Assembly (NCBI GenBank): GCA_000004985.1
Contig: GG738890.1
DNA: 64,000 bases
Reading direction: 5' to 3' (one strand)
Origin: Naegleria gruberi
Taxonomy: Eukaryota
A model generated the notes under the pieces. The model had not been told where the DNA came from. It ran no database searches and worked only from the letters and a program-made list of their open reading frames with translations. A program made the position numbers and the translations under genes. Positions 15,899 to 64,000 of this stretch are shown piece by piece (positions within the stretch are counted from its first letter, which is position 1; the number at the start of each line of letters is the position of its first letter).

Positions 15899-17254
15899 TT
15901 AAAAGTTGAACTCTTCTAATGTTTGATATTGGAATTGTTCCAACTCTTCTCTTGTCTTTTTCTTTGGTTTGAGAGGTTTGGCAAAGTAAGGAAGTTTCAA
16001 TTCTAGATTTTTCACTAATTTCAAACTTTCTTTCAAGGTTTCTACTTTCGTTTCAGAGAGATTAGTTCTTTCAATATTTAAATATTGCAAATTTTTCATC
16101 AAACACAAATGTTCTATACTGAAATCATCAATTTTTGTGCCATCCAAATCTAAACCTTTCAGCTGTTTCATTTTAGATAGGTAGAGAGCTCCAATATTTC
16201 GAATAGGATTTTCTCCAAGATTAAGCTTTGTCAGATTCTTCATTTTGGAAATAAATTGTACACCTCGTTCATCTATTCTATTGCGGATTAGTTCTAATTG
16301 AGATAGATTCTCTAGTTTTGAAATAAATTGCACTCCATCATTTCCTATATTATTATAACTCAAAGAAAGATATTCGAGTGATTGTAGCAATGATAAATAT
16401 TCAACTCCTTCATCATCTATTTTGTTATATGCAAGACTTAGATATTTCAAATTTGAAAGTTTGACTAAATGACGTAAAGATTCACTTCCAAAATTATTTC
16501 CAAACAATTTCAATTTTGAAAGAGTGGTAATTTGTGAAATGTTTCCCAGACCAATCTCATCAATATTTGATGCTTCCAATTCAAGTGTAATAAGGGGGAG
16601 TTTAGAAATATATTCCATGCACTTTCCTCCAAGATCAACTCCATTCAAATTCAAATGATTGAGATTGGAAATTTCACTCAATTGTTCAATATCATCCATG
16701 GATAGAACATTTTTCGATAAATCCAACTTTTTCAGACCTTTCAATTTCTTTAAATGATATAATCCTCCACTGACCTTATTATATGGGAGGGTGAGCTCCT
16801 CTAATGAGTTCAAATTTGAGAAATATTGTAAACTCTTTGGCCCCAAATTACATGAGCAAGCATTCAACCTCTTTAAACATTTAAACTTTGAAAGATAAAT
16901 TGCATTTTCATCTCCAATATAACTGCCATCAATTATTAACTCTTTCAAATTCTCAAGATATGGAAAATTCTCCAAAATTGCAACTCCCACACTTCGACAA
17001 CTAAATTTAACCATTGAAGATAACATTCCACTATCACAACATTCCCTAAATGATTCCTCCTTCTCAAATTCCATACCAATAGAGAAGCTTCTGGTCATTG
17101 AGAAGGGTGTTCCTTGTATTAGACTCTGCCACTGCTTGCACACATGCTGAAAATAACACAACAATTCAGAGCCATCAATGAATGAAAATATTTGATCTCT
17201 AATGATCTCTGCTGGGAGAATTTGAGAAAAATCTGTGAGTTGTTTTTCTTGCAT
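15899..17254 (-). CDS. F-box / RNI-type leucine-rich-repeat protein
   Basis: The 451-aa protein has an N-terminal F-box ILPAEIIRDQIFSFIDGSELLCYFQHVCKQWQSLI. It is followed by about 14 LRR_RI-like units (LSLAYNKIDDEGVEYLS.., LSLSYNNIGNDGVQFIS.., LELIRNRIDERGVQFIS..). The ATG at 17254 was verified. Confidence 0.65.
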   Translation of the reverse strand: MQEKQLTDFSQILPAEIIRDQIFSFIDGSELLCYFQHVCKQWQSLIQGTPFSMTRSFSIGMEFEKEESFRECCDSGMLSSMVKFSCRSVGVAILENFPYLENLKELIIDGSYIGDENAIYLSKFKCLKRLNACSCNLGPKSLQYFSNLNSLEELTLPYNKVSGGLYHLKKLKGLKKLDLSKNVLSMDDIEQLSEISNLNHLNLNGVDLGGKCMEYISKLPLITLELEASNIDEIGLGNISQITTLSKLKLFGNNFGSESLRHLVKLSNLKYLSLAYNKIDDEGVEYLSLLQSLEYLSLSYNNIGNDGVQFISKLENLSQLELIRNRIDERGVQFISKMKNLTKLNLGENPIRNIGALYLSKMKQLKGLDLDGTKIDDFSIEHLCLMKNLQYLNIERTNLSETKVETLKESLKLVKNLELKLPYFAKPLKPKKKTREELEQFQYQTLEEFNF

Positions 17255-41000: not shown

Positions 41001-41358
41001 TACTACTACTAGTATTGCTATTATTTGAAAAAAGGTGATTGGAAGGGGAGGTAAAGGATGAAATACTATTACAATCCAATAAATTTAGGGAGGATGTTGT
41101 GGACAAGGGAGATTGAACAATAGATGACGACAAGGGTGTGGTTGTAGACGGAAGTAATGTACAAGAACTCTCACAATCTAACTGTGTTGGAGTTAGCACT
41201 GTTGGTTGCTGTTGATAATATTGTTGTACATGTTGATGATGATGCGGAGAAGTTATTGTTGTTGGAAAATTATCATGATAATTGTTAGTGGTCAACATTG
41301 TGAATTCAATTTCGCTACCAACCTTTGAATCAACTACAGAGGAGGAGTTTTTGCTCAT
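38032..41358 (-). CDS. Zn(II)2Cys6 (Gal4-type) binuclear-cluster transcription factor, Q-rich, 1108 aa
   Basis: The ATG was verified. A canonical CX2CX6CX6CX2CX6C cluster CTNCRSRHKKCSRELPVCNYCKKMGKDCVY is preceded by long poly-Q/H/P tracts and a lysine-rich NLS-like stretch. A large C-terminal helical region is arranged like a fungal-type transcription factor middle homology domain. Confidence 0.75.
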   Translation of the reverse strand: MSKNSSSVVDSKVGSEIEFTMLTTNNYHDNFPTTITSPHHHQHVQQYYQQQPTVLTPTQLDCESSCTLLPSTTTPLSSSIVQSPLSTTSSLNLLDCNSISSFTSPSNHLFSNNSNTSSSNLDPKMNETSHSLPPTSNNHYPQHHFPNIPTNNSTTLGGAGGLHSMADWAKLHDGSKSTLPPSMYTQQTAHSYPPPPNHQHHQQQHSMMHPQQQQQPVLPPHYPLYYHHPNQTTNGGFYQPPHHQGYFQPPPPRADLSHQYMSHSYQPQHSTDATQAMLAATQQQQDVSNTDGGNGNKSSGSSTSSESSSDESIQPPPSKKKQKSKKKIAESYDAASTTAPYSPTNTTFTETAIDEQGGNFQLAQIACTNCRSRHKKCSRELPVCNYCKKMGKDCVYLKSRKGQDQQNRKKKKKKKDKESVPPTNPITTEVPQTICPPPSTTNVNVAIPPTTIPTASPAVPSISMNTSSNFSNPVTHTPHSVVQSSSSGSSNHNEMSPLPSSLHGSSPLLTHQFNPMAYSERDFKDPNSISVMLSSFVHSINFRYTAHKLLDLYYKELCAGFALVDKSLMEGLIEQLMGNDGNSNASMILNHMQLDSTTQDGLISILYSIQALALQQSGDYVLKGDYRQKLMEYMHNLAKEKISKYFDNMDNIYIAVALHYLTDYVCGEGDMRKTSLYLAMVKQMIGLHGYGGPTDQQVGATQASYSAQDSPSLPKFLLRILVRYKETFLSDYMSKVTGKPSSATKLFGIFASRIKLDTSFFDKAEKGQISSQYLPLIENVVRIAHTYYSLLFETMYQAQGDLFCLFSNVFIREFYLDLYSKVENIPAAVLVSYANEIISYTKTEKYIFAPFVIANGIAKAVAVRLEYWRQTGDTSVDFKDDLRALKVLSTRYGVVQKLYGDLINQIENATLLQSMNETNSSRLFGANLPDAFQNVQQQMPTQPQPPQQQVMVNDHEHDAMQQFDDSISFSPLMDPFNPNNGNLLSMLFNEVGNERCESLNEESYFMDDPQMGSSDAAQQDRDHNPFIKGYSLVKMMIKQLSKLKDALHISEPKYKEESLKKAKTELIEELSKALPNDIEAKFILELTKHQHPHQIHPCQYSHLALLFE

Positions 41359-42241: not shown

Positions 42242-43504
42242 TTATTGTAACCTATTTTTCAAATCAGAAATGACAATGGATAAAAGTTCAGTTCTCAATG
42301 AAGTAATTCTTTCTGTTGGAATCAATTTGAATCGATTGGAAATAAAAATTTTACAATAACTAAATAAACTTTCAATATTTGCAGTTTCTGCCAAATCGAA
42401 TAGTTCACAAACATTATCAGTTGTAATGTTTGGAATAATAAAACGAGTGGCAAGATCTTCCATTTCTGTGAGCATTAATTGATTTCCCACTTGAGTTAAT
42501 TTCAATAGAGTTTCCATTGGAATACATTCACCATCCTTAGTCTTGATTGTTCCAGTATAGATATATTCGAGAATGTACTTCATAATTAGATATTCAAACT
42601 CAACTTTCATAACAAATGGATTTTGTGAAGTGTATTCCTTTGAATTATTCCATTGAGTTGACAATAAAGTCTTGAAATATAGAGATCTAGCAACTAGTAT
42701 TGCATGATTAGCATACAGAATTTGATCACTATCTGAGCAAGCAATATGTACATTGGCAAATTCTTTCATTTCTAATAATTGTACCAAATCTCTTCTCAGA
42801 AAACTATCTGATTTTGATTCTAATGCTTTTTCAAGTCTTGTGCTCATTGAGATTGGAAAATCACTCTTCATATCTTCCAAAATATCAACATCACACAGAG
42901 CCATATTATACATTCTGAAATTTTTGATCTGTGCATTGGCTCTATCATAACCATAACCACTTTCGAATAGATGAAAATTTTGATTATCATTTCTCTTCAA
43001 ATATTGCCCAAACTTTTCATATTTATCCAACTTTCCATCGATAAACAAGAATTGATAAGGTCCATAATACACTAAACCAACATGAGTCCACCTATTCAAA
43101 TCAATCTCTTGCCTACTATCAAATCCTGCATTATCTGCAACAGACGAATCACATCTACAATGCAACAAATTACTTCCCGGACACAACCAACAAGCAGGTT
43201 GTCTAACAGTGTTGGCATTTCCATGATGAAATAAAACTCTCCATTGTCCATGTCCATTTCCTAGTAAATTAATTTGAAAAGTAATGGAATATTCACGTAG
43301 GAGGCTCTGTTCAGAATGAATATCCTCACCTGTGATGGTTGTATTCTCAGGTGTGGTGAGAAATTGTGAAATGATTGGATTTTCATGTTTGATGGATGGA
43401 ATAAATGATGGTTTTACATTGAGCTGCTTTGGGGAAATAACTTGGGAGTGAGTTTGTGTGTTGATCGGAGTGGTGTCTACGAATTCTTGGCTATGAATTT
43501 GCAT
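42242..43504 (-). CDS. BTB/POZ + BACK domain protein with N-terminal beta-sandwich (ConA/LamG-like?) domain
   Basis: This 420-aa ORF has a verified ATG. The C-terminal half NVHIACSDSDQILYANHAILVARSLYFKTLLST....FVMKVEFEYLIMKYILEYIYTG matches a BTB domain, followed by a BACK-like helical region. The N-terminal ~200 aa, WRVLFHHGN...CWLCPGSN.LHCRCD...LNRWTHVGLVYYGPYQFLFIDG, has lectin/LamG-like spacing. That assignment is tentative. Confidence 0.6.
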   Translation of the reverse strand: MQIHSQEFVDTTPINTQTHSQVISPKQLNVKPSFIPSIKHENPIISQFLTTPENTTITGEDIHSEQSLLREYSITFQINLLGNGHGQWRVLFHHGNANTVRQPACWLCPGSNLLHCRCDSSVADNAGFDSRQEIDLNRWTHVGLVYYGPYQFLFIDGKLDKYEKFGQYLKRNDNQNFHLFESGYGYDRANAQIKNFRMYNMALCDVDILEDMKSDFPISMSTRLEKALESKSDSFLRRDLVQLLEMKEFANVHIACSDSDQILYANHAILVARSLYFKTLLSTQWNNSKEYTSQNPFVMKVEFEYLIMKYILEYIYTGTIKTKDGECIPMETLLKLTQVGNQLMLTEMEDLATRFIIPNITTDNVCELFDLAETANIESLFSYCKIFISNRFKLIPTERITSLRTELLSIVISDLKNRLQ

Positions 43505-52632: not shown

Positions 52633-54917
52633 TTAATAACCTTGTTGCTGTTCAAAAGATGAGTTTTCTCCATCTTGGCGTTCTTCAGAGGATTGAGACA
52701 GTGAAAGGGCATTAGCTGTTTGTTTCATTAATTGAGTTACGGTAGCAACTTGTTTCTTAACTTGCTTGGCTTGCTCTTCCATATCTTGTGTTTCAAACAC
52801 TCCAAGACTCTTATAGATCGAATTCATGTAAGGAATCATTTTAACTTCAATAATCTTACGAAGGGCTTGTTTTTCCTTCTCCTTAGTTCCTAGCCCCGCA
52901 TCAGAAACTCTTTGTAAATGAATGAGAGCAGCTGTCTTTCTGTCAAGAGCATCTTCCAACATTTTTTGATGGTGATCATAGGCATCCAATTCCTCTTGAA
53001 GGGAAAGGATTGTTTCATCTCTTTCGTTTAATCTAGCTGTTAATGCAATCATGATATCTCGTTGTTTTAACAATAGTTGCTTATATCTGTCAACTTGTGC
53101 CTTATCTTCCTCTATGGATTGCCTTTCTCTCTCCAATTCTTGTAATTTTTTCTCATATTGTTTGTGAACTCGTTCATATTCTTGTTTAATCAACTTTCTA
53201 AAAGCTGGGGTTTCTTCAATTTTCTCACCACCAACTAGTAATTGGGATTGTAAGTGAGCAATCTTTTCTTCCAATTTTCTCTTCAAAGTCTTTTCGTGAA
53301 GGAACTCTCTTGATCTGGATTCCAATGCTTCAATGGCTGCCAATTTATCTTCTTCTGCTCTTCTTCTTTGTTCTTCTAATTCTAAAATTCTTTGTTTTCC
53401 AACAACAGTTTTACTCTTCTTTGAGAGCTCTATTCTGAGCTTCTTCAATTCTTTTTCGTATTTTCTAAGCAAAGCCCTTTGATCTAAATCCTCATTGACA
53501 GTTACAATATTCTTGATACATTTAGCTCTCTTGGCAAAGTGGAGAGTGGAGAGAGATTCACCGTGGAATTCCATAGCCGGAGAAACCATGGCCAACATGG
53601 TAGTCCTGCAATTACCTCCCAAACTGTCAGCCAATAAACTTGTAAGCTTTGAGTTTCTGTATGGAACATAGTTGTCTTTCTTTGTGAGAGCGGAAATAAC
53701 CATACCCAAACAAGTCAGAGACAAGTTGATCTTTTTAGTTTCTTCTAAAAGTTCTCCAGAGGCACCACTTACTGACACTCTTTCACTTCCAGCCAAGTCA
53801 ACAAGATTAAGCTTACCAATACGATAAGATTCTTTAACTTCCTGCACAACCTCTTTTCCAGTGATGGCGTCTGCATTGGCACAATCGATATCTTCCTCAT
53901 TTGAAATTGTTCTTTCCAAATGTTCTGCAACAATGATAAACACTGCGTGAGATCTACTACTTCCTTCGTTGAGTTTTGTAGGGGCTTTAGCTCTTCCCTT
54001 TCTTCCTTTGTCAATCAATTGATAAATTTCTTTAGGTGTTCTTACAACTTCTTCAGTCAACCCTTCAACGCAGGTTCCTTTCTTTTTATATTCTCTTATT
54101 GTTAAATTTGTTTTTGTTGGATCCAACAGATCATAAATTACTTCCTTATAAATTTGTAAGTAAGATGCTCTGATTAAAAAATTAACATTTGAAGATCCTT
54201 TTGTTTCAATATCTGATTCTATTTAAGAATATCGGAATCAATAAAACTTACATTCAAAAATGTCCTCTGTTGCTCTTGGAATAACACCTCTTAATTCCCT
54301 CTTATTTTCGAACCCTTCCATAGTATAGGTCTTGCCTGTACCAGTTTGACCGTATGCAAATAAGGTTGCCTGATTGAAAGTAAGATAAAATCAATCCCTT
54401 AACAACTTACATTGTATCCTTTAAGTACTGATAATACAGCTCCTCTGGCATGATTTTCATAAATTTCGTCTTGTCTACTATCCTCGCCATAGATATGATC
54501 AAATGTAAATGAATGTCCTACAGAGTAGTTTGCATCAGGTGAATCCGAAATCACCATGCTCTTCCTTGAATCACTAATCCTAATTGTACTGATAAGAGGT
54601 TCACCTCTATCTTGACATCCCTTTAATTCTCTTGGAAGGAATGGTCTAACACGAATAACAACGGTAATGTTTTCCTTTGGTGAATCATCATATTCAGCCT
54701 CGGCAACTGTGAGTTCTTCATGGTATTCTTCGTTTTCATCCTGAGCCAGATTATTTGTACTTTGACTTCTGTTGCCACTTGGCACAGCTCCTGAAGGCAA
54801 AGCAGTAATACTTCTTCTCAAACTTCCACTCGACTGACTTCTATTCATATTTTTTTTTAAAAAATGTTTTTTGTTTGAGATTGGCGGGAAAGTTTTTACA
54901 GTTGGTGTATGATTCAT
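52633..54917 (-). CDS. kinesin motor protein (N-terminal motor, kinesin-2/KIF3-like neck and stalk), 3 exons
   Basis: Exons are about complement(join(52633..54212,54252..54369,54411..54917)), 2205 nt giving 734 aa. Introns are 41 and 39 nt, starting GTAAGT. Motor motifs are [28 protein letters not shown] (exon 2), [19 protein letters not shown] and [12 protein letters not shown]. The neck [12 protein letters not shown] resembles KIF3 LRQFQKEIEELKK. A long coiled coil follows. An alternative start at the second ATG (about 54848) is possible. Confidence 0.85.
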
Positions 54918-55047
54918 TATTGGATCTAGATTTTGGCGGCCTATTTTTAAAATGGCATAATTGTTGTTGAATTATTCCTTTGATTTTACATAATTTTTTT
55001 TGGTTTTTTATTTTAAAATACATACAGAAATAATTGTCGATTATAAA

Positions 55048-55923
55048 TTATTTGGTCTTGATCTTCTTGGCACCAACCTTTGGGAAACTGGATTCATCAG
55101 CTGACTTTCCTTCTTCCTTTTGATTCCAAGTTGCAGAACTGCTTGAAGATGTTGTTGTACTAACGAAAACCTTGGCAGTTGAGGCTGACTTTTCAGTACC
55201 CTTCTTTGGTTTAGTTTCAACAACTTCAACAGGTACTTCCTTAGTGTTTGAATTCCAGAAATCATCTTCATTAGCATATGGATCTCTGACAACAGTACGT
55301 CTCTTTTCCTTATTAACTGTTGGTTGAGCAGTTGCTACTTCTTGTTCGGAATCAGATCCTTCACTGTTACTGTCGGCTTGTTTAGCTTCAACCTTCTTCT
55401 TGGTTTCTTGTTCTTCATCGGATTCATCCTTCTTGGTATCAACAAACTTTTTAAAGATGGACTTGTTTTCATCCTTCTTTTGTTTCTTTTGTTCAACCTT
55501 TGGTTCAGCCTTCTTTTCATCCTTCTTACGACCAGTTGATTCAGGTCTCTTGACAACTTGGAAGGTTGGATCTTCTTCCTTTTGCTTCTTGGATGACTTT
55601 TGTTCAGTAGTGGCCTTCTTGGAAGTAGTAGCCTTCTTCTTTGATTCAGTTTGTTCAACAACAACTTCCTTCTTCTTGTTCAATCCATAGAGTTCAGCAA
55701 CATCAATGGAATCAAGTTCAGAAGCATCTTCATTTTCTGAGGCAGAGGAAGCAGCAGTAACAGTAGCCTTCTTTTCTGACTTATTCTTCTTCTTCTTACC
55801 AGCAGTGGTTGGCTTCAACAATTCACTCTTGTTGACACTAGCAGTTCCGGAACCACTTTTAGTATTAAAGAAGAGGAAAGCAGCAGCAACCAAAACCAAA
55901 GGAATGATCAAATAGAGCAGCAT
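55048..55923 (-). CDS. N-terminal signal-anchor + K/E-rich low-complexity protein
   Basis: The true ATG is at about 55923; the track ORF starts at an upstream TTG. The product starts MLLYLIIPLVLVAAAFLFF and continues about 270 aa that is roughly 35% K/E with S/T runs. The antisense strand is covered by spurious ORFs (55324..55915) that arise from the low-complexity coding. Confidence 0.4.
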   Translation of the reverse strand: MLLYLIIPLVLVAAAFLFFNTKSGSGTASVNKSELLKPTTAGKKKKNKSEKKATVTAASSASENEDASELDSIDVAELYGLNKKKEVVVEQTESKKKATTSKKATTEQKSSKKQKEEDPTFQVVKRPESTGRKKDEKKAEPKVEQKKQKKDENKSIFKKFVDTKKDESDEEQETKKKVEAKQADSNSEGSDSEQEVATAQPTVNKEKRRTVVRDPYANEDDFWNSNTKEVPVEVVETKPKKGTEKSASTAKVFVSTTTSSSSSATWNQKEEGKSADESSFPKVGAKKIKTK

Positions 55924-56560
55924 TTTCAATAAATTAAGAATATTACTATAGAGTATAATGATGTGAGGGAGAACAAATTAATCCACAATATATTATTGTT
56001 AATATCTTGTTGATGATGCTGTTAATGGTAATCAAAAAAATCCAAAAGAAGCTTGCTCCACGTGAGGTTTTCTCTCTTTTTTTTATTCTCTGCTGGCTTG
56101 AAAAGATTTTGTTTTCCTTGTGCTGAATAAATGTTAGCTGGCATTTTTGCGATTACGTGGGCAGAGTTTGTTGCTGGCAAGAACAATTTCAAGATTATTG
56201 TAATCCATCATTGTTACCCTATGATGATGAAGAAGAGGAGAATTTGGTGTTAGGGATGATGAGAAGGTTTTTAAAAGAGTCTTCCGATGATGAAAAAAGA
56301 AAGAAAGGCTATTGTTGGATGATGATCTACAAGTACAATTAGGGAAATGTAGTTGATGAGTAGACTTGGAATAGATTGAACAATATTCAATTAATTATTA
56401 TTTATCTAAATAATATTTCCTTCAAATTAATATTAAATTTATCAAGTGATTAATATATTATTTACCCTATGTAACACACATTAGAAATGTATATTCATTA
56501 AGGTTGATTTCTTCCTTGAGTTTTATCAAACAACAAACGAAAAAAAAATACAGCAAACGA

Positions 56561-57736
56561 ATGTCTCTGCAACCATTCCACAATTTCACAACTGTAGCCA
56601 ACACGCTCACACAAGATTCATCATTCGCATTCAATTTGAATGTAACCATCGTGAGACATGTTAAATGGATTTCAGATTCATTGTTGACTTTCTTTGTAGA
56701 GAATACCTATGCTTCGGATTGTGTTAAAATCTATAGAACTTGTCCATTGCAATCTGGTGGTATGAAAAATTGTGAATTGATCGAGAGTGTGAAATTGGTA
56801 ACTGATGAAGATTGTGCTGCAAATGTCAAGACATCAATTGGCTGGTTGGAAGTTGCATCATTTCCAACAACTGGATCAATTTATTTGATGACAGTCATTA
56901 AGAAAGTTAACGGAGAGGAAGTGAAATATGTGGAAAGAATATTTAAATTGCAAAATATTGGCAGTGGCAGCTCGTTGGAACAATTATGTCATTCTAATGA
57001 GTTGACTGTGAGAATGGCCTGTTCAATAATTGCAGATGAGGAAAGAGAATGTGTCTATATGATTGGAGGACTGAATATTAGAAAAGATGCAGAATTATAT
57101 AGAGATGACATTTCACAATTCAATGTGAAAACAATTGAATGGTCACTTTTAACAAATGTTGAAACAGTAGCTCTCTATTCTCATTCATCTCTAATGTGGA
57201 AAAACAAGTTCATTGTAATATTTGGAGGTTATATCTCATCATGTTCAGTATCTAGTAATATCACTCTTTACAATCTTGAAACAAAACAATGGCTCACTGC
57301 TTTCCATCTTTTGGAAGATAGTCCATCAAAATCTAAAGCAAATGGTAGAACCAATTCAGGAATTGCACTACTTCCCAATGAATGGGCGTGTAAATTCAAT
57401 CGCTCCATTCCGAATAATTCAGAATGTGATACTTTAATTATTTATGGAGGCAGAATTTCAAAACTGGTTTCAAAGAGACTTGTGTATGTAGAATCGAGTG
57501 ATATATTGCTCTTCCATTTGAACGAATCAGAATTGAAAGTGAGACAGAGAAGAGAGGAATATAGTGTGGAGTTTCCATTCGAGTTGAAACATTTCATTTT
57601 GGCAATGCCAAAGAATGAATTTAGTTCATTGTTTGTTTTTGGAGAGGAAACCAGCAAAATGTCATTGATTTTTTGTGGTTGTAATAATATTAGCAAGGCT
57701 GACTTGTTTTCTTCTCCAAATGTTAAGAAGAATTAA
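56561..57736 (+). CDS. Kelch-type beta-propeller repeat protein (tentative)
   Basis: The track ORF starts at a TTG (56504); the first ATG is at 56561. Repeated ~50-aa units with a GG doublet and hydrophobic beta strands occur: YMIGGLNIRKD..LYRDDISQFNVKTIEW, FIVIFGGYISS...ITLYNLETKQW and LIIYGGRISK... Confidence 0.45.
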   Translation: MSLQPFHNFTTVANTLTQDSSFAFNLNVTIVRHVKWISDSLLTFFVENTYASDCVKIYRTCPLQSGGMKNCELIESVKLVTDEDCAANVKTSIGWLEVASFPTTGSIYLMTVIKKVNGEEVKYVERIFKLQNIGSGSSLEQLCHSNELTVRMACSIIADEERECVYMIGGLNIRKDAELYRDDISQFNVKTIEWSLLTNVETVALYSHSSLMWKNKFIVIFGGYISSCSVSSNITLYNLETKQWLTAFHLLEDSPSKSKANGRTNSGIALLPNEWACKFNRSIPNNSECDTLIIYGGRISKLVSKRLVYVESSDILLFHLNESELKVRQRREEYSVEFPFELKHFILAMPKNEFSSLFVFGEETSKMSLIFCGCNNISKADLFSSPNVKKN

Positions 57737-57796
57737 GATTGTAAATTAGTTTACAATACTATTATTGGAATATTTTAGAAAAAAACTTTAAAAAAA

Positions 57797-58866
57797 ATGA
57801 AAGAACATTCTCTGTTAAATTTACCCACGGAAATCCTACAATTAATTATTTCCTTCCTAATCTATGAATCTACATCAGAAAATTGGAAAGAATTACTTTC
57901 GAATGATTCGTGTTTCTATCGGCCAATTTCTATTCCACTTGAGAGAATGAAACAAATTGTCTTGAGTTTGCAATCTGTTTGTTCATATTTTCTAAAAGAT
58001 TATTTACCTATTGGAAAGAAATTAAACGAATTTTGGTTGCTTGTGATGCAAAGAGAATTTTACTATACGAAACAAGTGATCGAAAGTGAAAGGGAAAAGA
58101 TGAGATGGAAATCTAAACGATGTTATGGATTATTGAAAAGAATGGTGGAAATTAAATTTAATGATGCTTGTTATCCTATTGGAAACATTCAAAAGAATAA
58201 TCAAGATTCGTATAGATTCAAAGCATGTGTTATTGGAGAAAATGCTGGAGAAGAAAAGTTAACTAAAAGATACACGAACGATGACAATAATCAAAATTTT
58301 GACATTGAATTTATGTATCTCAATGATCGTGGTAAGTTTATTTGAGAATTATTGAGATTAATTTAAAGTTAGATAAAATAATTCGAAACTGTGAAGTTTC
58401 CATAATTGTCTTCCCATCGATTCATGAGTCGGATGATGCACTTGAGGATAGTTTAGCTCATTTAAGTTCTATAATACGTCAAGTGTTGAGAATTAGAGAT
58501 TTTGATGATGCTCCATGTGTGATTGCATTCTCAAAAAGTGATTCATTAGACGAATCTTCTTATTCTCAATTCGAAACAAGAACGAAAGAACAGTTTATTA
58601 GGAGAATAATGGCACAACAAGACATGCTTAATTGTGGAATTGTTCATAGGAGTGCTGAAAATGGAGATGGAATTGATGAGATTGTTAAAGAAGTTATCAA
58701 TAGATATTTAACTTTGGTTTCGTCCAAAAGTAGAACAACTACTAACAAAATTTACCAAAATTGGCATACAGGAACAATTTTGCAAAAAATTATTTCTTCA
58801 GAAAAAGAAATTTACTCAATTGTATCCAACGAAACAGGTGGAAGTTCAAGATGTGAATTGATGTAA
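57797..58866 (+). CDS. F-box-like N-terminus + degenerate Ras/Rab-like pseudoGTPase domain, 2 exons
   Basis: Exons are about join(57797..58331,58397..58866) with a 64-nt intron GTAAGTTTATT...CTGTGAAG, 1005 nt giving 334 aa. The N-terminus LLNLPTEILQLIISFL is F-box-like. The GTPase-like part is KACVIGENAGEEKLTKRY (degenerate P-loop, GKS/T lost), YLNDR in place of DTAGQ, DAPCVIAFSKSDSLDE (NKxD replaced by SKSD) and NCGIVHRSAENGDGIDEIVKEVI (SAK-like). Confidence 0.55.
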
Positions 58867-59199
58867 TATTTGGTCAACCAAAATACTTCTTAATTTAAAT
58901 ATTTATTTGGAAAGTTTCAAATCTGCAAAGTAAGGATCATTGAGGAGATCGATTGTTTGTGGTCTAACATCTGGATCCTTTTCTATCATTCTAATAACTA
59001 ATTGAAAAACCAAAACCAGCCAAAACAGTTGAAATATTCTCTTCACCTAAATCTCTAATAAAGATATTCGAAGGTTTAACATATTGGGAAAATAAACGAA
59101 TGTTGTTGAACATGATAAAAAAGACTTTACAATTAGTTAATACTGAAGAGAATTATAGACAACCGATTCAATATTGAATAATTAAACTTTACAAAAAAA

Positions 59200-60162
59200 A
59201 TGCATCAAGATTGTTGGGCTGAAATTATTCCATTTTTGCAACCGATTGATGTTTTAGCTTCCCTCCTCACAATCAATCATAGCCTTCACAATTTAATTAA
59301 AAAATTGTGTATTGTTACTTTTGATAGAATTTCCCAATTTACAGCTGGTTGTTGTTCTGAGTTGAAAATTTCATTTAATTGTCATGATGATTTTGAAAAT
59401 ATTGAAAAGATTAATCATGATGTTCCAATATATGGGAATGTAAAATATTTCATCCGATTATACTTGTTAAAATTATCCTTAAAATTAGGAAATCAGGATC
59501 CTGAGAACGGAGATCTCAATGTAATTTCAGACATTTTGAATAGTTCAGAATTGAAATTGTTGAATTTCTATCGATCTGTCTTTACTGAATTTAAATTTCC
59601 ACAACAGAAAAATCCATCAACAATTGCTTATTGTGTGGTGGGAGAGGCTGGAGTTGGAACGTGCTACTTTTGTGAATTTGTTCGGTTTGGAAAAAAGTCA
59701 TATAGTTTGCGATATGGATTTGAATCCTTTTACAAAAAATTTACAATTCCAAACGAGATAGAATGGCAACAGCAAATTTGGATACCAGATGGATCTGAAA
59801 GGTTCTATTCGAAACAAGATGTTATCCAAAGATACAAAAAATATGATAAGAGCATGTATATTCTTCCATGTTTTTCAATGAATTATGAAACGTCATTTCA
59901 AACAGTAGGAGATTGGGTTTCAATTATTAGAGATACTCTTGGAATAATTGTTGGACTCAGTACTACAGATTTCTCACTAGATCCTCTTGAAGAAAAGAAA
60001 GTTAGTTTGAACGATGCTGTGAGGAAGGCATTCGAACTTGGATTTTCAGTATTTGTGGAATCTGATGACAATCACATATTTACTCCATTTTGGTTCATTC
60101 AATTGCAATCCACCTATTTCACTTTTAATAAGAATGATAATTGGGATTGTTCTCTAATGTAA
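59200..60162 (+). CDS. F-box-like N-terminus + degenerate Ras/Rab-like pseudoGTPase domain (paralog of 57797..58866)
   Basis: This 320-aa single ORF has an F-box-like N-terminus WAEIIPFLQPIDVLASLLTINHSLHNLI. The GTPase-like part is AYCVVGEAGVGTCYFCEFVRF (P-loop lysine lost), IWIPDGSERFYS (DTAGQE-like), IIVGLSTTDFSLD (NKxD lost) and GFSVFVESDDNHIFTPF (SAK-like). Confidence 0.5.
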   Translation: MHQDCWAEIIPFLQPIDVLASLLTINHSLHNLIKKLCIVTFDRISQFTAGCCSELKISFNCHDDFENIEKINHDVPIYGNVKYFIRLYLLKLSLKLGNQDPENGDLNVISDILNSSELKLLNFYRSVFTEFKFPQQKNPSTIAYCVVGEAGVGTCYFCEFVRFGKKSYSLRYGFESFYKKFTIPNEIEWQQQIWIPDGSERFYSKQDVIQRYKKYDKSMYILPCFSMNYETSFQTVGDWVSIIRDTLGIIVGLSTTDFSLDPLEEKKVSLNDAVRKAFELGFSVFVESDDNHIFTPFWFIQLQSTYFTFNKNDNWDCSLM

Positions 60163-60854
60163 AAGTAATAAATAGTAGATTAAATACGCAGTTTAGGAAC
60201 TTGTTTGATATTCCAAACCTAATTAGAGCAAAAGACTACAGCACCACAGGTTCCCAAGTTGTCTCCAACCTCAGTACTGATGTGGCTCGACGATGCTTAA
60301 CTTCTCAAATCGGACGGGATGAGGTGCATTCATCGTGATATGGCCGTAGCCATTCAATTCATTATCGCTATGAATATAAAGAATATGGAACTTCTTTTGC
60401 ATAACTTAATGCAACTTAGTAATACTTAAGGTGGTTAACCTATTAAGCTCTGTAAAAAGTTATCCTTGATCAATCGATTCTCACGACCAACTCAATACAA
60501 ACTTTTAGTAATTAAGTTATAACAATTTAGTAACATTATTTTTGGATATTCTTTTTAGTTTCATTGGACGGGAAGCCTGCCAGGAATATGACTGTGCATA
60601 CAGTTGTATGAACAGTGAAGGCAACGAAGACAGAATCTTGTTGGTTCAGGTTTTGTTTGAAGAAATTGATTAGGTTGATCACCCTTCTATAAATTGAATA
60701 TTTGACTGGTAAATTGATGGATGCAAGTTTTGGTTTCTCATTTTCTGATCAAATCGAAATTGAAACTTCAAACAGTAGCTGCCTTAATTTAACCATTCTT
60801 AGCTTAAAATAAAATTTACAAACCAAGAAAGATGAAATTCTAAATTGATATGCT

Positions 60855-61200: not shown

Positions 61201-62202
61201 TTATTTCTGCTAGTAAGTCAGCTGACAGCGTTTCAACTTACAAGTCTGGATATCCCAGCAATTGATGAAGGTAGTTCAGTGTCATCACAGACTAAACCTT
61301 TAGATAATAATCAAAGTGGTTCTGGAAATAACCCAGTTTCATCGCAAACTAAACCCTTGGATAACAACCAAGGTGGTTCTGAAAAGAACCTAGATGCTAT
61401 TCTTCACGCCATCACTTTATTGGGTGAGAGAATTAAACATCTTGAAGCAGTTCCACCCATCCTTCAAGAAGCTGATCAACTTGATGACAACTCTGATGAG
61501 GATTCTGCTGAAGATTCCACTGGTAAACATTGGGGTATGTCAACAATCAAGGAGATTAGAAGACACTACGAAGTTGGCGACAGATTAGCCGATGGAGATG
61601 TCTTAAGTTTTGTTTCAGCCAAAACTCTTCGTCGTTATCAAACCAATGATGCTCTTTTGAATAGAGTTCAATCATTAATGGCTAGATTTGAATCCGTTAT
61701 TCATAATCATCGTACTTATCCCCGTTTGCAAGAAATCCAATCAAAGGGCTTGCAAAAGATGATGGAAATGTTGCATTTGAAATCTAGACTACTCCATTTC
61801 GCTTTAAGTCACCCAATGAACGTTGCTAACATCATTGAAATCACAGAATTAGTTTATCTTCTCTGTGAGGTCGAGAAAATTTTCTTGGAAGAAGGTTTGT
61901 TTGATAGTAATTTTGAGGTTGCCACCAATTTCATTCAACCATTCGTACAGAGCAATACGTTCGCTGACATAACCGAAAAAGCACGTAGTAAGAAGAGAGA
62001 GAAAGCTGTTATCAAGACTGCTTTTGTTGGAAAGATTCAAAAACCCAACAAAATGAAAGAGAAGTTGAACAAACCCTACACTTCTCAACACAACAGCTAC
62101 TCTAAGTCTTACAAGAGTAACTCCAATTTTCAAAAATCAGGAGACTCAAAACCAAAGTACAACAACAACAACAGTGGAGGATCCTTCAGCAAGGACCTCT
62201 GA
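61201..62202 (+). CDS. retroelement ORF1 (gag-like), start codon unclear
   Basis: The frame is open from 61186 to the TGA at 62200..62202. The track ORF starts at a GTG (61279) and the first in-frame ATG lies about 110 codons in. An N-terminal 18-aa direct repeat VSSQTKPLDNNQ(S/G)GS occurs twice. The body is helical and K-rich with no zinc knuckle; the C-terminus is K/S/N-rich. Confidence 0.55.
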   Translation, partial: LFLLVSQLTAFQLTSLDIPAIDEGSSVSSQTKPLDNNQSGSGNNPVSSQTKPLDNNQGGSEKNLDAILHAITLLGERIKHLEAVPPILQEADQLDDNSDEDSAEDSTGKHWGMSTIKEIRRHYEVGDRLADGDVLSFVSAKTLRRYQTNDALLNRVQSLMARFESVIHNHRTYPRLQEIQSKGLQKMMEMLHLKSRLLHFALSHPMNVANIIEITELVYLLCEVEKIFLEEGLFDSNFEVATNFIQPFVQSNTFADITEKARSKKREKAVIKTAFVGKIQKPNKMKEKLNKPYTSQHNSYSKSYKSNSNFQKSGDSKPKYNNNNSGGSFSKDL

Positions 62203-64000
62203 CTTGGTGGGTTGTCGTCTTGGCAAGTTTGTAACTCAGTGGGAGAGTTACAACTTCAACCCATTCATAGTGGATTGGATTCGGAATGGAGTTCCAATCT
62301 ACTCAAATCCCACCCTTTGGAAAGAATTCAAGCAAAGGAAGAATTTCTCTCCAAAGGAGACCTCTTGGATGGATCAAGAAATCCAAGAGATGTTGAGTTC
62401 CAATGTCATCGAACTTGGAAACAAATCTACGGTACTCAATCCAATAAACATTGTCCCCAAGAAGGGCTCAGATCAGTTTCGTTTTATTCTGGATCTCAGG
62501 AAAGTAAACTTGGGGATCAAGGATACTTCGTTCAAGATGGACAACATTCAAAAATGTTTGAAGTTTGTTCAGAAAGGAATGTGGGCAACAAAGATAGACC
62601 TGAAGAAAGGCTATTTTCATGTTCCCATCAGAGAGAGTCATCGACACCTTCTGGGATTCAAGTACAAGAGCCTTGTATACCAATTCAAATGCCTTCCATT
62701 TGGTCTAAGTCAAGCTCCCAGAAACTTCACCAAGATAATGAAGGAACTAATGACCAAGTGGAGAAAGCAGGGCATCTTGGTATTCATTTACATCGACGAT
62801 ATATTGATTCTAAGCAACCACAAGGAAACTACCCAACAACACACAGACATAATCTTGAAAGACCTAGAAACATTAGGATGGATTATACAGAAGGAGAAAA
62901 GTGTGTTGACACCTTGTCAATGCATAGAATTTCTGGGTCTGGAATTGGATTTAATATCAGGTTTGGTAAAAATTCCACTCAACAAACAAGCCACTGCGAT
63001 AAAACTGATCCAAGACTTCTTGTCAGCGAACCAACTGAACAGATATGTAGCTTGCAAGAAAGTGGCTCAGTTTCTTGGGAAGATGGAATTTCTAACCCTA
63101 TCAAACCATTATTTTGCACCATTTCTGGCTCGTCTTCGAAAGGATATGGTGAAAGTAGTAAACGACAAATCCTGGCACGCATCGATGAGAATATTCAGAG
63201 GTGCAACCAAAGACCTCAAGATATTGAAAACTCTGATTCAGGAAAACAGTGGAGTTCCATTCGAACTGAACTCAATGAACCCGATTCGAGTGAATTCAGA
63301 TGCTTGCCCAACAGGTTATGGAATTCACGCAGAATCAACCATTACAATTGGAAGATTCAATTCCTCAGAGCACATCAATGTCAAAGAGTTAAAAACACTC
63401 CTCATTTTCTTCACACAAGCAGATCAATTAAACCTTTATGGTCCTGGTCAGGCATTCGAGATAAGAGGCGACAATGTAACAGCAATATCTTATATAAGGA
63501 GAGGTTACGGAGTCATCGAAGAACTCTCACAAATAGCCAGAGATCTCTACAAAATTCTAATGAGAAGAAAATGGTGGATTTCCAAAGTGATTTATATTCC
63601 CTCAAAGGAAAACATTTTGGCGGACAGACTGAGTCGTCTAACAGAATGGAAATCCTCTCAAGAACTATTGAATCTAGTTCAGACAGAATTTGGAGAACAC
63701 CACGTGGACAGATTCGCAACATTGGAATCAACCACAACAATTCAATTCAATTCATGGATAGAGAACGACACATTTCTGAACCCATGGGAACAAAATCTGA
63801 TGAGCTATTGTGCTCCTCCTCTGGGTCTGATATCTCAAGCTCTAGTTCACTGCATCAAGTCAGGAGCCAAAGCGACATTTGTGGTTCCAGATTGGCCCTC
63901 TTCGATATGGTTTCCAGTCTTGCTAAAGATATCAGAAAGAATGATAACTGTTTCGAGAAAGATGCTTATAATAACGCCCTTATCAGAGTTGCAAGACAAG
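62069..64000 (+). CDS. retroelement pol ORF (RT / RNase H / MT-like domain), +1 frame relative to gag, 3' partial
   Basis: The frame opens after the TGA at 62066..62068. It overlaps the gag frame by about 134 nt and runs without a stop to the end of the window. It is not listed in the ORF track because it has no stop inside the window. The first in-frame ATG is near 62360 (SWMDQEIQEM). The RT box C YIDD is at about 62789..62800. Confidence 0.8.

What the first reader, a model, noticed from the sequence alone, without database searches (positions are those of the whole stretch)
57797..60162. Tandem pair of F-box-like proteins carrying degenerate Ras/Rab-like pseudoGTPase domains
Two adjacent same-strand genes share the same architecture. 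An N-terminal F-box-like helix pair is followed by a small-GTPase fold. Every catalytic motif in that fold is recognisably positioned but degenerate. The P-loop reads GENAGEEKLT or GEAGVGTC instead of GxxxxGK[ST]. The DTAGQE position reads YLNDR or PDGSERF. The NKxD position reads SKSD or LSTTD. The SAK position is retained only as a hydrophobic pattern. This looks like a small family of GTPase-derived, nucleotide-binding-dead adaptor modules that could be recruited to SCF ubiquitin ligases through the F-box. It may be a substrate receptor recognising GTPase effectors or regulators. The two copies have diverged considerably, so the duplication is old and probably maintained.
Basis: partly seen in the sequence, partly recalled or inferred. 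Interest (0 to 1): 0.6.

Follow-up and report, generated by a model that had tools for sequence, protein, structure and literature searches.

The report
Two degenerate Naegleria F-box-like GTPases
Two neighbouring Naegleria gruberi genes encode a Ras-derived and a Rab-derived protein that have lost their GTP-binding residues yet still look maintained. Their families were described in 2021, so this is a modest addition, not a new kind of system.

Summary
The window is Naegleria gruberi, not a dictyostelid. Gene 2 (59200-60162) is XP_002673455.1. Gene 1 is XP_002673454.1, whose NCBI model is truncated and mis-spliced. My model is 57797-58331 + 58373-58866 (342 aa, 41-nt intron).

The motif readings hold. 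Gene 1 has GE-NAGEE in place of GxxxxGKS, in-frame deletions of switch I/beta2 and part of switch II, then SKSD and SAE. Gene 2 has GEAGVGTC, IPDGSE, GLSTTD and ESDDN. Both end in CaaX.

They are not tandem duplicates. Gene 1 belongs to a Ras-type clade and gene 2 to a Rab-like clade. Each has closer paralogs elsewhere that keep an intact P-loop.

Herman et al. 2021 (PMC8296547) already list both genes. They also describe Naegleria GTPase expansions with N-terminal extensions (F-box in some), CaaX, and birth-and-death turnover.

F-box homology is sub-threshold for both genes. It is better supported for gene 1's clade (hhalign P about 1e-6 over the LPxEIL helix).

Gene 1 is under purifying selection between two strains (6 synonymous, 2 nonsynonymous, pN/pS 0.08). 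Gene 2 keeps 37 of 40 family-invariant positions.

Best reading: maintained, probably farnesylated pseudoGTPase adaptors. SCF recruitment is plausible but unproven.

The parts
57797..58331 (+). Gene 1, exon 1 (residues 1-178 plus the first base of codon 179). It holds the N-terminal extension, beta1, the degenerate P-loop, alpha1 and beta3.
   Evidence: ORF and sequence. The N-terminal 50 residues are missing from NCBI model XP_002673454.1. They are present and conserved in paralogs re-annotated by Herman et al. and in a second strain (P0003).
58332..58372 (+). Gene 1 intron: 41 nt, phase 1, GTAAGT...TTAG.
   Evidence: Splicing here restores the frame and gives DKIIRNCEV, which matches paralog RDMSVRNCQV. 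The paralogous locus L002 has a 41-nt GTAAGT...ATAG intron at the same codon position. The NCBI model uses a 65-nt intron that removes the conserved RNCEV.
58373..58866 (+). Gene 1, exon 2 (residues 179-342 plus stop). It holds alpha2 to alpha5 of the Ras-like domain, a C-terminal helix and the CaaX box.
   Evidence: profile match over residues 178-290; pLDDT 70-83, Ras fold.
57812..57859 (+). Gene 1 LLNLPTEILQLIISFL (residues 6-21): F-box-like helix 1 with the LPxEIL motif.
   Evidence: Pfam F-box-like E 0.024-0.19 and F-box E 0.66-2.3, all sub-threshold. hhalign of the clade's N-extension against a Pfam-validated F-box alignment gives prob 91.5%, P 8.5e-7 over 22 columns. With the variable insert excised it gives 92.8% over 31 columns.
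57947..58051 (+). Gene 1 conserved second block of the N-extension (MKQIVLSLQSVCSYF ... LNEFWLLVMQ). This may be F-box helices 2-3 plus the trailing W.
   Evidence: S60, N77, F79 and W80 are invariant or nearly invariant across the Ras-type clade. On its own this block does not match the F-box significantly (E 0.23).
58235..58264 (+). Gene 1 degenerate G1/P-loop GENAGEEKLT. It is one residue shorter than GxxxxGKS, with Lys->Glu and Ser->Glu.
   Evidence: Alignment to 12 clade members and canonical Ras. Gene 1 is the only member without the P-loop Lys.
58277..58389 (+). Gene 1 region of the in-frame deletions. About 20 aa (switch I + beta2) are missing between NDD and NNQNFDIEF. About 7 aa are missing in switch II/alpha2 (MYLNDR|DKIIRN, spanning the intron).
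   Evidence: Comparison with paralog ACER01000421.1/XP_002668758.1: NDDFFEVFDMGTVEEIFRKQISVNNQKFDIEFEEPSIYDEFEALRDMSVRN.
58531..58542 (+). Gene 1 G4 position SKSD (clade consensus [NT]KxD). Lys and Asp are retained.
   Evidence: K233 and D235 are invariant in alignment A2.
58651..58659 (+). Gene 1 G5 position SAE (SAK in paralogs).
58852..58863 (+). Gene 1 C-terminal CaaX-type box CELM.
   Evidence: Sequence. Clade members end in CNMM, CSMM, CICM, CSLM, CILC and similar.
59200..60162 (+). Gene 2, single exon, 320 aa = XP_002673455.1 / NAEGRDRAFT_71378. It is a Rab-like pseudoGTPase with a conserved N-extension.
   Evidence: 100% identity. Pfam Ras above threshold. Listed as 'Rab' in Herman 2021 Table S8.
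59209..59310 (+). Gene 2 residues 4-37 (DCWAEIIPFLQPIDVLASLLTINHSLHNLIKKLC): candidate F-box without the Leu-Pro (Met1-His2 sit at that position).
   Evidence: No Pfam hit for gene 2 itself. The same residues in paralogs match PF00646 positions 7-40: XP_002681067 E 7.6e-4, 19.7 bits (GA 20.5); XP_002669889 E 0.067. hhalign against the F-box alignment finds the same register but is not significant (P 0.011).
59434..59583 (+). Gene 2 further conserved blocks of the N-extension (GNVKYFIRLYLLKL ... LKLLNFYRSVF).
   Evidence: Invariant or near-invariant among five clade members.
59641..59664 (+). Gene 2 degenerate P-loop GEAGVGTC (paralogs: GDTGIGKT, GEHSIGKS, GDLGIGKS).
59779..59805 (+). Gene 2 switch II position WIPDGSERF (paralogs: FDTAGQERF, WDTSGEERF).
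59953..59970 (+). Gene 2 G4 position GLSTTD. The whole clade lacks NKxD (GLHP.., NLNP..).
60058..60072 (+). Gene 2 G5 position ESDDN (no SAK).
60148..60159 (+). Gene 2 CaaX box CSLM.
   Evidence: Sequence. Paralogs end in CSIY, CLLQ, CGLM. Herman et al. note a CaaX-bearing Rab-like clade.

Best explanation
These are two independently derived, lineage-specific members of the expanded Ras superfamily of Naegleria gruberi that happen to lie side by side. Gene 1 comes from a Ras-type clade and gene 2 from a Rab-like clade.

Both clades share one layout. A conserved helical N-terminal extension of about 140 residues starts with an F-box-like helix. A small-GTPase domain follows, then a C-terminal CaaX box.

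In both genes the residues that bind phosphate and Mg2+ (P-loop Lys and Ser/Thr, the DxxG Asp) are gone. In gene 1 the switch I/beta2 excursion has also been cleanly excised. They therefore cannot work as GTP/GDP switches.

Both are nevertheless kept as intact genes, so they are pseudoGTPases.

Most likely mechanism (inferred): the CaaX box is farnesylated (X = Met), which anchors the protein on a membrane. The dead G domain then serves as a constitutive, nucleotide-independent binding surface. The N-terminal extension binds the clade's usual partner. If the extension is a true F-box, that partner is Skp1/Cul1. In that case the protein would be an always-on SCF receptor, or a competitor of its GTP-regulated paralogs.

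Shown here: identity, family membership, loss of motifs, non-duplicate status, and purifying selection on gene 1.

Inferred: selection on gene 2, prenylation, loss of nucleotide binding, and any link to SCF.
For: Organism and identity.

Different families: there is no significant similarity between the two proteins, and their N-extension profiles are unrelated. Gene 1 and its paralogs score 45-51 bits against canonical N. gruberi Ras and 6-19 bits against Rabs. Gene 2's two best-preserved paralogs score 43-52 bits against their best Rab and 12-21 bits against Ras. Gene 2 itself scores 17 against -2. A third paralog, P0011, barely discriminates (13 against 6.5).

Paralogs elsewhere keep intact motifs: GEGGAGKS, switch I, TKSD and SAK in ACER01000421/XP_002668758; GDTGIGKT and DTAGQE in XP_002669889.

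The losses in gene 1 are specific. It keeps every conserved N-extension residue (L9, P10, I17, F20, S60, N77, F79, W80, E100, L112) and also P226, K233, D235, N265, I268 and R289. Most of what it loses is nucleotide-binding: the P-loop Lys and switch I. Three other conserved positions also differ.

Purifying selection on gene 1: against a 99%-identical second strain (L001, L003) there are 6 synonymous and 2 nonsynonymous differences over 298 codons. pN/pS is 0.08 and the binomial P is 0.001. There are no indels in the CDS, against 5 in the 296-bp spacer downstream. The neighbouring Kelch gene has pN/pS 0.47.

Gene 2 is an intact 320-codon ORF in roughly 30% GC DNA. It keeps 37 of 40 columns invariant in its four paralogs, the highest retention in the clade.

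Both genes keep CaaX.

Fold: Pfam Ras for gene 2. For gene 1, a profile match and AF2/Foldseek hits to H/KRAS.

F-box-likeness.

Published context for F-box + GTPase + CaaX clades in Naegleria: PMC8296547 supplement.
Against: - The selection test rests on only 8 substitutions, and one of the two strains is a metagenome contig.
- No second-strain or orthologous DNA was found for gene 2, so its maintenance is argued only from conservation pattern and ORF integrity.
- Herman et al. report pseudogenes and birth-and-death turnover in these clades.
- The F-box assignment fails Pfam's gathering scores for both genes.
- Profiles of the N-extensions find no F-box protein among PDB sequences.
- The AF2 N-terminal regions are low-confidence, and the gene 2 model is unusable.
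- Gene 1's first third of the G domain is poorly modelled (pLDDT 53-66) and does not align to the Ras profile, so retention of a complete fold is not shown.
- There is no expression evidence.
Confidence: 0.6

Rival explanations
1. One or both genes are young, still-open pseudogenes: dying copies in a birth-and-death family whose reading frames have not yet been hit by a stop or frameshift.
For: [quoted passage not shown]
- Gene 1 carries two in-frame deletions and a wrecked P-loop relative to a 54-56% identical paralog.
- Gene 1 has lost its Pfam Ras hit, unlike 12 of 13 sequences in that alignment (clade members plus one canonical Ras).
- No relatives outside N. gruberi-like sequences were found.
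- AF2 confidence is low.
Against: - Gene 1 shows pN/pS 0.08 (P 0.001) and no CDS indels between strains, while the adjacent spacer has 5 indels.
- Its splice sites, intron length and intron phase are preserved.
- Both genes keep a CaaX box and all family-invariant non-catalytic residues.
- At about 45-59% protein divergence from the nearest paralog, a neutral sequence of about 30% GC would have acquired stops.
- Herman et al. did not flag either gene as a putative pseudogene.
Confidence: 0.2
2. The N-terminal extensions are not F-boxes. They are clade-specific helical modules with another role, such as oligomerisation or docking to another partner. There would then be no link to SCF ubiquitin ligases.
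For: - All Pfam F-box hits are below gathering scores.
- For gene 1's clade only the first helix aligns. Helices 2-3 alone give E 0.23, and a variable insert of about 10-35 residues follows helix 1.
- Gene 2's clade lacks the Leu-Pro, and hhalign is not significant.
- PDB sequence searches with both profiles return only spurious hits: ApoA-I, ZCCHC8, ERp44.
- Herman's Table S8 gives no F-box label for either gene or for their nearest paralogs.
Against: - LPxE[IL]xxI[IL]xF is nearly invariant in the Ras-type clade and matches the F-box profile at P about 1e-6.
- Two paralogs of gene 2 match PF00646 in the same register, one within 1 bit of threshold.
- Other Naegleria Rab-like, Rho, Ran and G-alpha proteins carry bona fide F-boxes in the same N-terminal position.
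Confidence: 0.35
3. The proteins still bind a nucleotide in a non-canonical way and remain regulated switches. This applies especially to gene 2, which keeps a glycine-rich GEAGVG loop, and to gene 1, which keeps SKSD and SA.
For: - Gene 1 retains the G4 Lys and Asp and the G5 Ser-Ala.
- Gene 2 retains the P-loop glycines and the Gly and Glu of DxxGxE.
- The whole Rab-like clade lacks NKxD, yet most members keep GK[ST]. This hints at altered rather than absent nucleotide use in the clade.
Against: - The P-loop Lys and Ser/Thr are replaced in both genes (by Glu-Glu and by Thr-Cys).
- The DxxG Asp is lost in both.
- Gene 1 has no switch I Thr or beta2 at all.
- From established Ras biochemistry, loss of the P-loop Lys and of the Mg2+ ligands abolishes tight nucleotide binding (own knowledge).
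Confidence: 0.1

Closest known systems
[quoted passage not shown] 2021, BMC Biol, PMC8296547, Additional files 4 and 10)
   Same: - Same organism.
- Gene 2 (XP_002673455.1) and its paralogs XP_002669889.1, XP_002681067.1 and ACER01000495.1 sit together in the 'Rab' block of Table S8.
- They share the conserved N-extension and the CaaX end.
- The paper notes a birth-and-death pattern for these clades.
   Different: - The paper does not single out this gene and does not discuss its loss of G1, G3, G4 and G5.
- It gives no F-box label to this sub-clade.
- Its list of F-box partners does not include the Ras family, to which gene 1 belongs.
N. gruberi Ras-family expansion with N-terminal extension and CaaX (e.g. 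XP_002675968.1, XP_002681395.1, XP_002680941.1, ACER01000421.1; Table S8 of PMC8296547)
   Same: - Gene 1 (XP_002673454.1) aligns end to end with these proteins.
- It shares LPxEIL, the NFQS...FNEFW block, the Ras domain, the C-terminal 'LLKxV' helix and the CaaX box.
- It is 54-56% identical to ACER01000421.1/XP_002668758.1.
   Different: - Gene 1 is the only aligned member without the P-loop Lys.
- It is the only aligned member lacking switch I/beta2.
- It alone has no Pfam Ras hit.
TbFRP, the FYVE + F-box + Rab18-like GTPase of Euglenozoa (PMC3593210)
   Same: An F-box placed N-terminal to a Rab-like GTPase domain, in the sister lineage of Heterolobosea within Discoba. The role of its F-box is likewise unknown.
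   Different: - TbFRP has a FYVE domain and apparently an intact GTPase.
- Its authors found no Naegleria ortholog.
Rab40 (SOCS box, Cullin-5) and RhoBTB (BTB, Cullin-3): small-GTPase domains fused to cullin-adaptor modules (own knowledge; RhoBTB in Naegleria is mentioned)
   Same: A GTPase-fold domain in the same polypeptide as a cullin-RING ligase adaptor motif. The RhoBTB GTPase domain is also atypical.
   Different: - The adaptor module differs: F-box-like here, which would imply Cullin-1.
- It is N-terminal here.
- Ligase binding is unproven here.
Class I pseudoGTPases (p190RhoGAP pG1/pG2, PMC5593906; AAGAB, PMC12490416)
   Same: A GTPase fold with degenerate G motifs, used as a protein-protein interaction module rather than as a switch (abstracts).
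   Different: - Those are ancient, conserved domains with solved structures and shown absence of nucleotide binding.
- The two genes here are young, species-level derivatives of active paralogs.
- Nucleotide binding is untested here.

Membership tests
Ras-superfamily small GTPase fold (Pfam PF00071) | Significant match to the family profile at or above the gathering score | tested here: met
   Gene 2: 28.1 bits against GA 21.6, E 1.8e-6, residues 145-287. Gene 1 fails PF00071 itself. It is joined to the family through a 54-56% identical paralog that does hit Ras, a clade profile match of 31.8 bits over residues 178-290, and Foldseek hits to H/KRAS at E 2e-9.
Functional GTPase switch | G1 P-loop GxxxxGK[ST] | tested here: not met
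   Gene 1 has GE-NAGEE (Lys->Glu, Ser->Glu, one residue shorter). Gene 2 has GEAGVGTC (Lys->Thr, Thr->Cys).
Functional GTPase switch | G2 switch I Thr and G3 DxxG(Q/E) | tested here: not met
   In gene 1, switch I + beta2 are deleted and DTAGQ is replaced by MYLNDR. Gene 2 has IPDGSE, with the Asp lost, the Gly kept and Gln->Ser.
Functional GTPase switch | G4 [NT]KxD and G5 SAK (guanine recognition) | tested here: inconclusive
   Gene 1 has SKSD (Lys and Asp kept) and SAE (Ser-Ala kept). Gene 2 has GLSTTD and ESDDN, so neither motif is kept. Gene 2's whole clade lacks NKxD.
F-box proteins (PF00646 / PF12937) | Profile match at or above the gathering score, covering the three-helix F-box | tested here: not met
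   Gene 1: F-box-like 11.9-14.8 bits (GA 24.3). Gene 2: no hit. The best paralog of gene 2 reaches 19.7 bits (GA 20.5).
F-box proteins (PF00646 / PF12937) | Profile-profile similarity to validated F-boxes | tested here: inconclusive
   Gene 1's clade: prob 91.5-92.8%, P 4e-7 to 8.5e-7, driven by helix 1 (22-31 columns). Gene 2's clade: P 0.011, right register, not significant.
F-box proteins (PF00646 / PF12937) | Binding to Skp1 | not testable with these tools
   AF2 monomer models of the N-extensions are below pLDDT 50. No multimer prediction or experiment is available.
Naegleria Rab-like clade with N-extension and CaaX (Herman et al. 2021) | Conserved N-terminal extension, Rab-like G domain, C-terminal CaaX, Naegleria-restricted | tested here: met
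   Gene 2 is 38-55% identical in the N-extension to four clade members. It is closer to Rab than to Ras. It ends in CSLM. It is listed in Table S8. Only N. gruberi hits were found.
Naegleria Ras-type clade with LPxEIL N-extension and CaaX | LPxEIL...NFQS...FNEFW extension, Ras-type G domain, CaaX | tested here: met
   Gene 1 keeps all conserved extension residues. It is closer to Ras than to Rab. It ends in CELM. It is listed as 'Ras' in Table S8.
PseudoGTPase (class I) | GTPase fold with G motifs incompatible with nucleotide binding | tested here: met
   Met at the sequence level only. The fold is supported for gene 1 residues about 140-300 and by Pfam for gene 2.
PseudoGTPase (class I) | Demonstrated absence of nucleotide binding | not testable with these tools
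   This needs biochemistry.
PseudoGTPase (class I) | Maintained by selection (not a pseudogene) | tested here: inconclusive
   Gene 1: pN/pS 0.08, P 0.001, based on 8 substitutions. Gene 2: only indirect evidence, 37 of 40 invariant columns kept and an intact ORF.
Tandem duplicate gene pair | The two neighbours are each other's closest relatives, or at least significantly similar | tested here: not met
   BLASTP best E is 0.017, on a mis-registered segment. The extension profiles are unrelated. The two genes derive from different parent families. The paralogous locus L002 has no gene-2-like neighbour.
Prenylated small GTPases | C-terminal Cys-a-a-X | tested here: met
   CELM (with an atypical acidic a1) and CSLM are the last four residues. 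The modification itself is not testable.

The most novel reading that the evidence does not exclude
Both proteins are maintained, farnesylated, nucleotide-independent F-box receptors. They would be 'F-box pseudoGTPases' that tether SCF ligase activity constitutively to a membrane, or that antagonise their GTP-gated paralogs.

The graded loss of G motifs seen across the two Naegleria clades would then record the repeated, ongoing conversion of switch-regulated E3 adaptors into constitutive ones.
Probability: 0.2. Interest if true: 0.55.

Novelty: new member of a known kind. Interest (0 to 1): 0.3.

Why it matters
If these proteins are expressed and bind Skp1, they would be natural examples of a GTPase-gated ubiquitin-ligase adaptor that has lost its gate. 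Having intact paralogs in the same genome makes them a useful comparison set for asking what the G domain contributes to such adaptors.

In practical terms, the work does four things:
- It corrects the gene model of NAEGRDRAFT_71377.
- It shows that the Ras-type N-extension clade of Naegleria is F-box-like. This is a pairing not listed in the 2021 survey.
- It shows that motif-dead members of these expansions need not be pseudogenes.
- It does not reveal a new kind of system.

Tried and rejected
- **Dictyostelid origin.** Rejected. The sequences match Naegleria gruberi at 100% identity.
- **tRNA-like stretch at about 60280-60350.** ARAGORN finds no tRNA anywhere in the window.
- **Word-index homolog search with gene 1.** It found nothing. 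The exhaustive representative search was needed.
- **Third homolog search with a mixed two-clade alignment.** It returned only 5 proteins, so the MSAs for structure prediction stayed shallow.
- **AF2 of gene 2.** Mean pLDDT 34.5, unusable, so no fold search was run on it.
- **AF2 of gene 1.** The N-extension is below pLDDT 50, so there is no structural test of the F-box.
- **PDB sequence searches with both N-extension profiles.** Only spurious weak hits: ApoA-I, ZCCHC8, ERp44.
- **Helices 2-3 of gene 1's extension alone against the F-box.** Not significant.
- **Exact-protein contig look-ups for XP_002673455.1 and XP_002669889.1.** Nothing on record.
- **Two metagenome scans for gene 2 relatives.** Nothing found, so no dN/dS for gene 2.
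- **Pair duplicated as a two-gene unit.** Rejected. The paralogous locus L002 is followed by an unrelated Ser/Lys/Asp-rich ORF.
- **F-box on the upstream Kelch gene.** None seen.
- **N. fowleri orthology in Table S8.** It could not be read from the held text.


Full report
**What is there**

The region 57797-60162 holds two same-strand protein-coding genes in about 30% GC eukaryotic DNA.

Gene 2 (59200-60162, 320 aa) is 100% identical to Naegleria gruberi XP_002673455.1 / NAEGRDRAFT_71378. Gene 1 corresponds to XP_002673454.1 / NAEGRDRAFT_71377. The window is therefore N. gruberi, not a dictyostelid.

The NCBI model of gene 1 (284 aa) starts at Met51 and uses a 65-nt intron. My model is 57797-58331 + 58373-58866 (342 aa), with a 41-nt phase-1 GTAAGT...TTAG intron. 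Three things support it:
- The N-terminal 50 residues and the RNCEV segment are conserved in paralogs that Herman et al. re-annotated.
- A second strain has the same open exon 1 (P0003).
- The paralogous locus L002 has a 41-nt intron at the identical codon position.

**Check of the observation**

Gene 1, compared with its 54-56% identical paralog ACER01000421.1/XP_002668758.1 and ten other clade members:
- GE-NAGEE replaces GEGGAGKS. The loop is one residue shorter, with Lys->Glu and Ser->Glu.
- About 20 residues are missing (FFEVFDMGTVEEIFRKQISV, which is switch I plus beta2).
- About 7 residues are missing in switch II/alpha2.
- SKSD replaces TKSD, and SAE replaces SAK.

Gene 2, compared with XP_002669889.1 (41-46% identity):
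- GEAGVGTC replaces GDTGIGKT.
- IPDGSE replaces DTAGQE.
- GLSTTD sits where NKxD should be.
- ESDDN sits where SAK should be.

A GTPase origin is well beyond chance:
- Gene 2 passes Pfam Ras (28.1 bits against 21.6).
- Gene 1 fails Pfam Ras, unlike 12 of 13 sequences in alignment A2, which holds clade members plus one canonical Ras.
- Gene 1 does match a profile built only from distant clade members and canonical Ras. The score is 31.8 bits (P about 5e-12) over residues 178-290.
- The moderately confident part of gene 1's AF2 model (pLDDT 70-83, residues about 140-300) retrieves H/KRAS as top Foldseek hits (E 2e-9, TM 0.60-0.74). That model was built with intact relatives in the MSA, so it leans on them.

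Both proteins end in a CaaX-type box, CELM and CSLM.

**Not a tandem duplicate pair**

- The two proteins have no significant similarity to each other. The best BLASTP E-value is 0.017, on a mis-registered segment.
- Profiles of their N-terminal extensions are unrelated.
- Gene 1 and its paralogs score 45-51 bits against canonical N. gruberi Ras and 6-19 bits against Rabs.
- Gene 2's two best-preserved paralogs score 43-52 bits against their best Rab and 12-21 bits against Ras. Gene 2 itself scores 17 against -2. A third paralog, P0011, barely discriminates at 13 against 6.5.
- The switch regions of intact paralogs show the same split directly. YDPTIEDxY / LDTAGxEEYSAMRDQY is Ras-type, and GIDF / DTAGQERF is Rab-type.
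- Each gene's nearest relatives lie on other scaffolds.
- The paralogous locus of gene 1 is not followed by a gene-2-like gene.

With more than 350 Ras-superfamily genes in this genome, occasional adjacency of two of them is expected.

**What is already known**

Herman et al. 2021 (PMC8296547, Additional file 4) re-annotated the N. gruberi Ras superfamily. They describe three divergent, Naegleria-restricted Rab-like clades with these features:
- One clade carries a CaaX motif.
- Some members are disrupted, indicating birth-and-death evolution.

Their Table S8 lists gene 2 as 'Rab' and gene 1 as 'Ras'. Neither is flagged as a pseudogene, and neither has an extra domain noted.

In the sister lineage, Euglenozoa have TbFRP, which is FYVE + F-box + Rab18-like GTPase (PMC3593210).

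The architecture is therefore published. What is not in that survey:
- The loss of G motifs in these two members.
- An F-box-like reading of the Ras-type extension.
- The corrected gene 1 model.

**F-box test**

To obtain a test rather than a recollection, I assembled 11 F-box segments. Ten of the 11 hit PF00646 and PF12937 (best E 8.7e-12 and 4.6e-18).

For gene 1's clade:
- The N-extension profile (10 sequences) matches the F-box alignment with probability 91.5% and P 8.5e-7, but only over the 22 columns of helix 1 (LPxEILxxIlsF).
- After excising the variable insert of 10-35 residues that follows helix 1, the match extends to 31 columns in the expected register (92.8%).
- Helices 2-3 alone are not significant (E 0.23).
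- Single-sequence Pfam hits are sub-threshold in 5 of 10 members.

For gene 2's clade:
- The protein starts exactly where the F-box Leu-Pro would be (Met1-His2).
- Gene 2 itself gives no Pfam hit.
- Paralogs XP_002681067 and XP_002669889 match PF00646 positions 7-40 with residues 4-38. The scores are E 7.6e-4 (19.7 bits against GA 20.5) and E 0.067.
- hhalign finds the same register but is not significant.

Other tests gave nothing:
- Profile searches of PDB sequences found no F-box protein.
- AF2 gave no confident N-terminal model.

Verdict: 'F-box-like' is reasonable, and stronger for gene 1's clade. Membership of the F-box family is not established, and Skp1 binding is untested.

**Pseudogenes or maintained pseudoGTPases?**

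An ENA metagenome (ERZ929261) contains contigs from a strain 99% identical to the window. L001 covers 53369-58467 and L003 covers 58600-59162.

Over the 298 covered codons of gene 1:
- There are 6 synonymous and 2 nonsynonymous differences (T26K, V191I).
- pS is 0.035 and pN is 0.0028, so pN/pS is 0.08.
- The binomial P against neutrality is 0.001.
- There are no indels in the coding sequence.

For comparison, the 296-bp spacer downstream has 4 substitutions and 5 indels, and the neighbouring Kelch gene shows pN/pS 0.47. The sample is small, but it points clearly to constraint.

Gene 1 keeps every conserved residue of the N-extension and most of the conserved positions in the rest of the G domain. 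Most of what it lacks is nucleotide-binding: the P-loop Lys and switch I. Three other conserved positions also differ.

The 20-residue deletion removes exactly the switch I-beta2 excursion. By the known Ras topology, this would leave a plain beta1-alpha1-beta3 crossover (inference). The deletion also removes the effector-binding edge, which argues against the idea that gene 1 mimics a GTPase towards Ras effectors.

For gene 2, no second-strain DNA could be found. Indirect evidence:
- It keeps 37 of 40 columns that are invariant in its four paralogs, the highest retention in the clade.
- It has an intact 320-codon ORF.
- It has a CaaX box.

**Pattern across the clades**

The Rab-like clade shows a graded series:
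- XP_002669889 and XP_002681067 keep G1 and G3.
- P0011 keeps only G1.
- Gene 2 and ACER01000495.1 keep neither.
- No member has NKxD.

In the Ras-type clade, most members have a degenerate DTAGQ but keep GK[ST]. Gene 1 is the extreme case.

**Mechanism**

Shown: two GTPase-derived proteins lack the phosphate and Mg2+ ligands, so they are unlikely to cycle.

Inferred:
- They are farnesylated (X = Met) and membrane-anchored.
- They act as constitutive scaffolds.
- Their N-extension engages the clade's partner, which would be Skp1-Cul1 if it is a true F-box.
- They would then be always-on receptors, or competitors of their GTP-gated paralogs.

Rivals:
- Still-open pseudogenes (about 0.2 overall, more plausible for gene 2).
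- An N-extension that is not an F-box (about 0.35, compatible with the pseudoGTPase reading).
- Residual non-canonical nucleotide binding (about 0.1).

**Verdict**

The finding is a new member, or new state, of a published kind. Interest is modest at 0.3. It would rise if expression, Skp1 binding and absence of nucleotide binding were demonstrated.

Noticed in passing
window 57797-58866: The NCBI model of NAEGRDRAFT_71377 (XP_002673454.1, 284 aa) appears truncated and mis-spliced. It starts at Met51 and so drops the LPTEIL helix. It also uses a 65-nt intron that removes the conserved DKIIRNCE. A 342-aa model with a 41-nt intron fits the paralogs and a second strain.
   Followed up: yes
gene 2 paralogs (P0002, P0011, Table S8 sequences XP_002681067.1 and ACER01000495.1); window 59641-60072: The Rab-like CaaX clade shows a graded loss of G motifs. 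Two members keep G1 and G3, one keeps only G1, and two (including gene 2) keep neither. No member has NKxD. This suggests a clade drifting away from guanine-nucleotide switching as a whole.
   Followed up: partly
Ras-type clade sequences from PMC8296547 Table S8 (alignment A2): Most members of the Ras-type N-extension clade have a degenerate switch II (for example DTYAMD, EMKGNSE, KLYTHDE in place of DTAGQE) while keeping GK[ST]. Many may be GTPase-deficient but nucleotide-binding. Table S8 does not label their LPxEIL N-extension as an F-box.
   Followed up: partly
window 61279-64000 (+): A retroelement with higher GC (about 40% against about 30%). It has a gag-like ORF whose N-terminus carries a tandem duplicated 'SSQTKPLDNNQxGS' segment. 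A second ORF runs off the window end and has reverse transcriptase (PF00078, E 6.5e-26) plus a weak Dam-like methyltransferase hit. That combination is typical of DIRS-like elements.
   Followed up: partly
L001 (= window 53369-58467) and L003 (= window 58600-59162): An ENA metagenome assembly (ERZ929261, PRJEB11402) contains a Naegleria strain about 99% identical to the window. The gene 1-gene 2 spacer (58951-59134) is indel-rich: 5 indels, including a 12-bp one.
   Followed up: yes
window 56561-57736 (+): The upstream neighbour is a Kelch beta-propeller protein (Beta-prop_ATRN-LZTR1 and Kelch hits) with no detectable F-box. Between the two strains its pN/pS is 0.47 (9 nonsynonymous, 5 synonymous), much less constrained than gene 1.
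   Followed up: partly
window 15899-17254 (-) and 42242-43504 (-): Other putative cullin-adaptor genes lie in the same window. One is an LRR protein with a weak N-terminal F-box-like hit (E 6.6e-4). The other is a BTB + Laminin_G_3 protein.
   Followed up: no
window 38032-41358 (-): A 1108-aa ORF carries a fungal-type Zn(2)-Cys(6) binuclear cluster domain (PF00172, E 4.8e-8). This is an uncommon domain outside fungi.
   Followed up: no
window 55048-55929 (-): A lysine/serine-rich low-complexity 293-aa ORF is completely invariant between the two strains, despite 16 substitutions in the 1653 bp of non-coding sequence in the strain-aligned interval (53369-58467).
   Followed up: no
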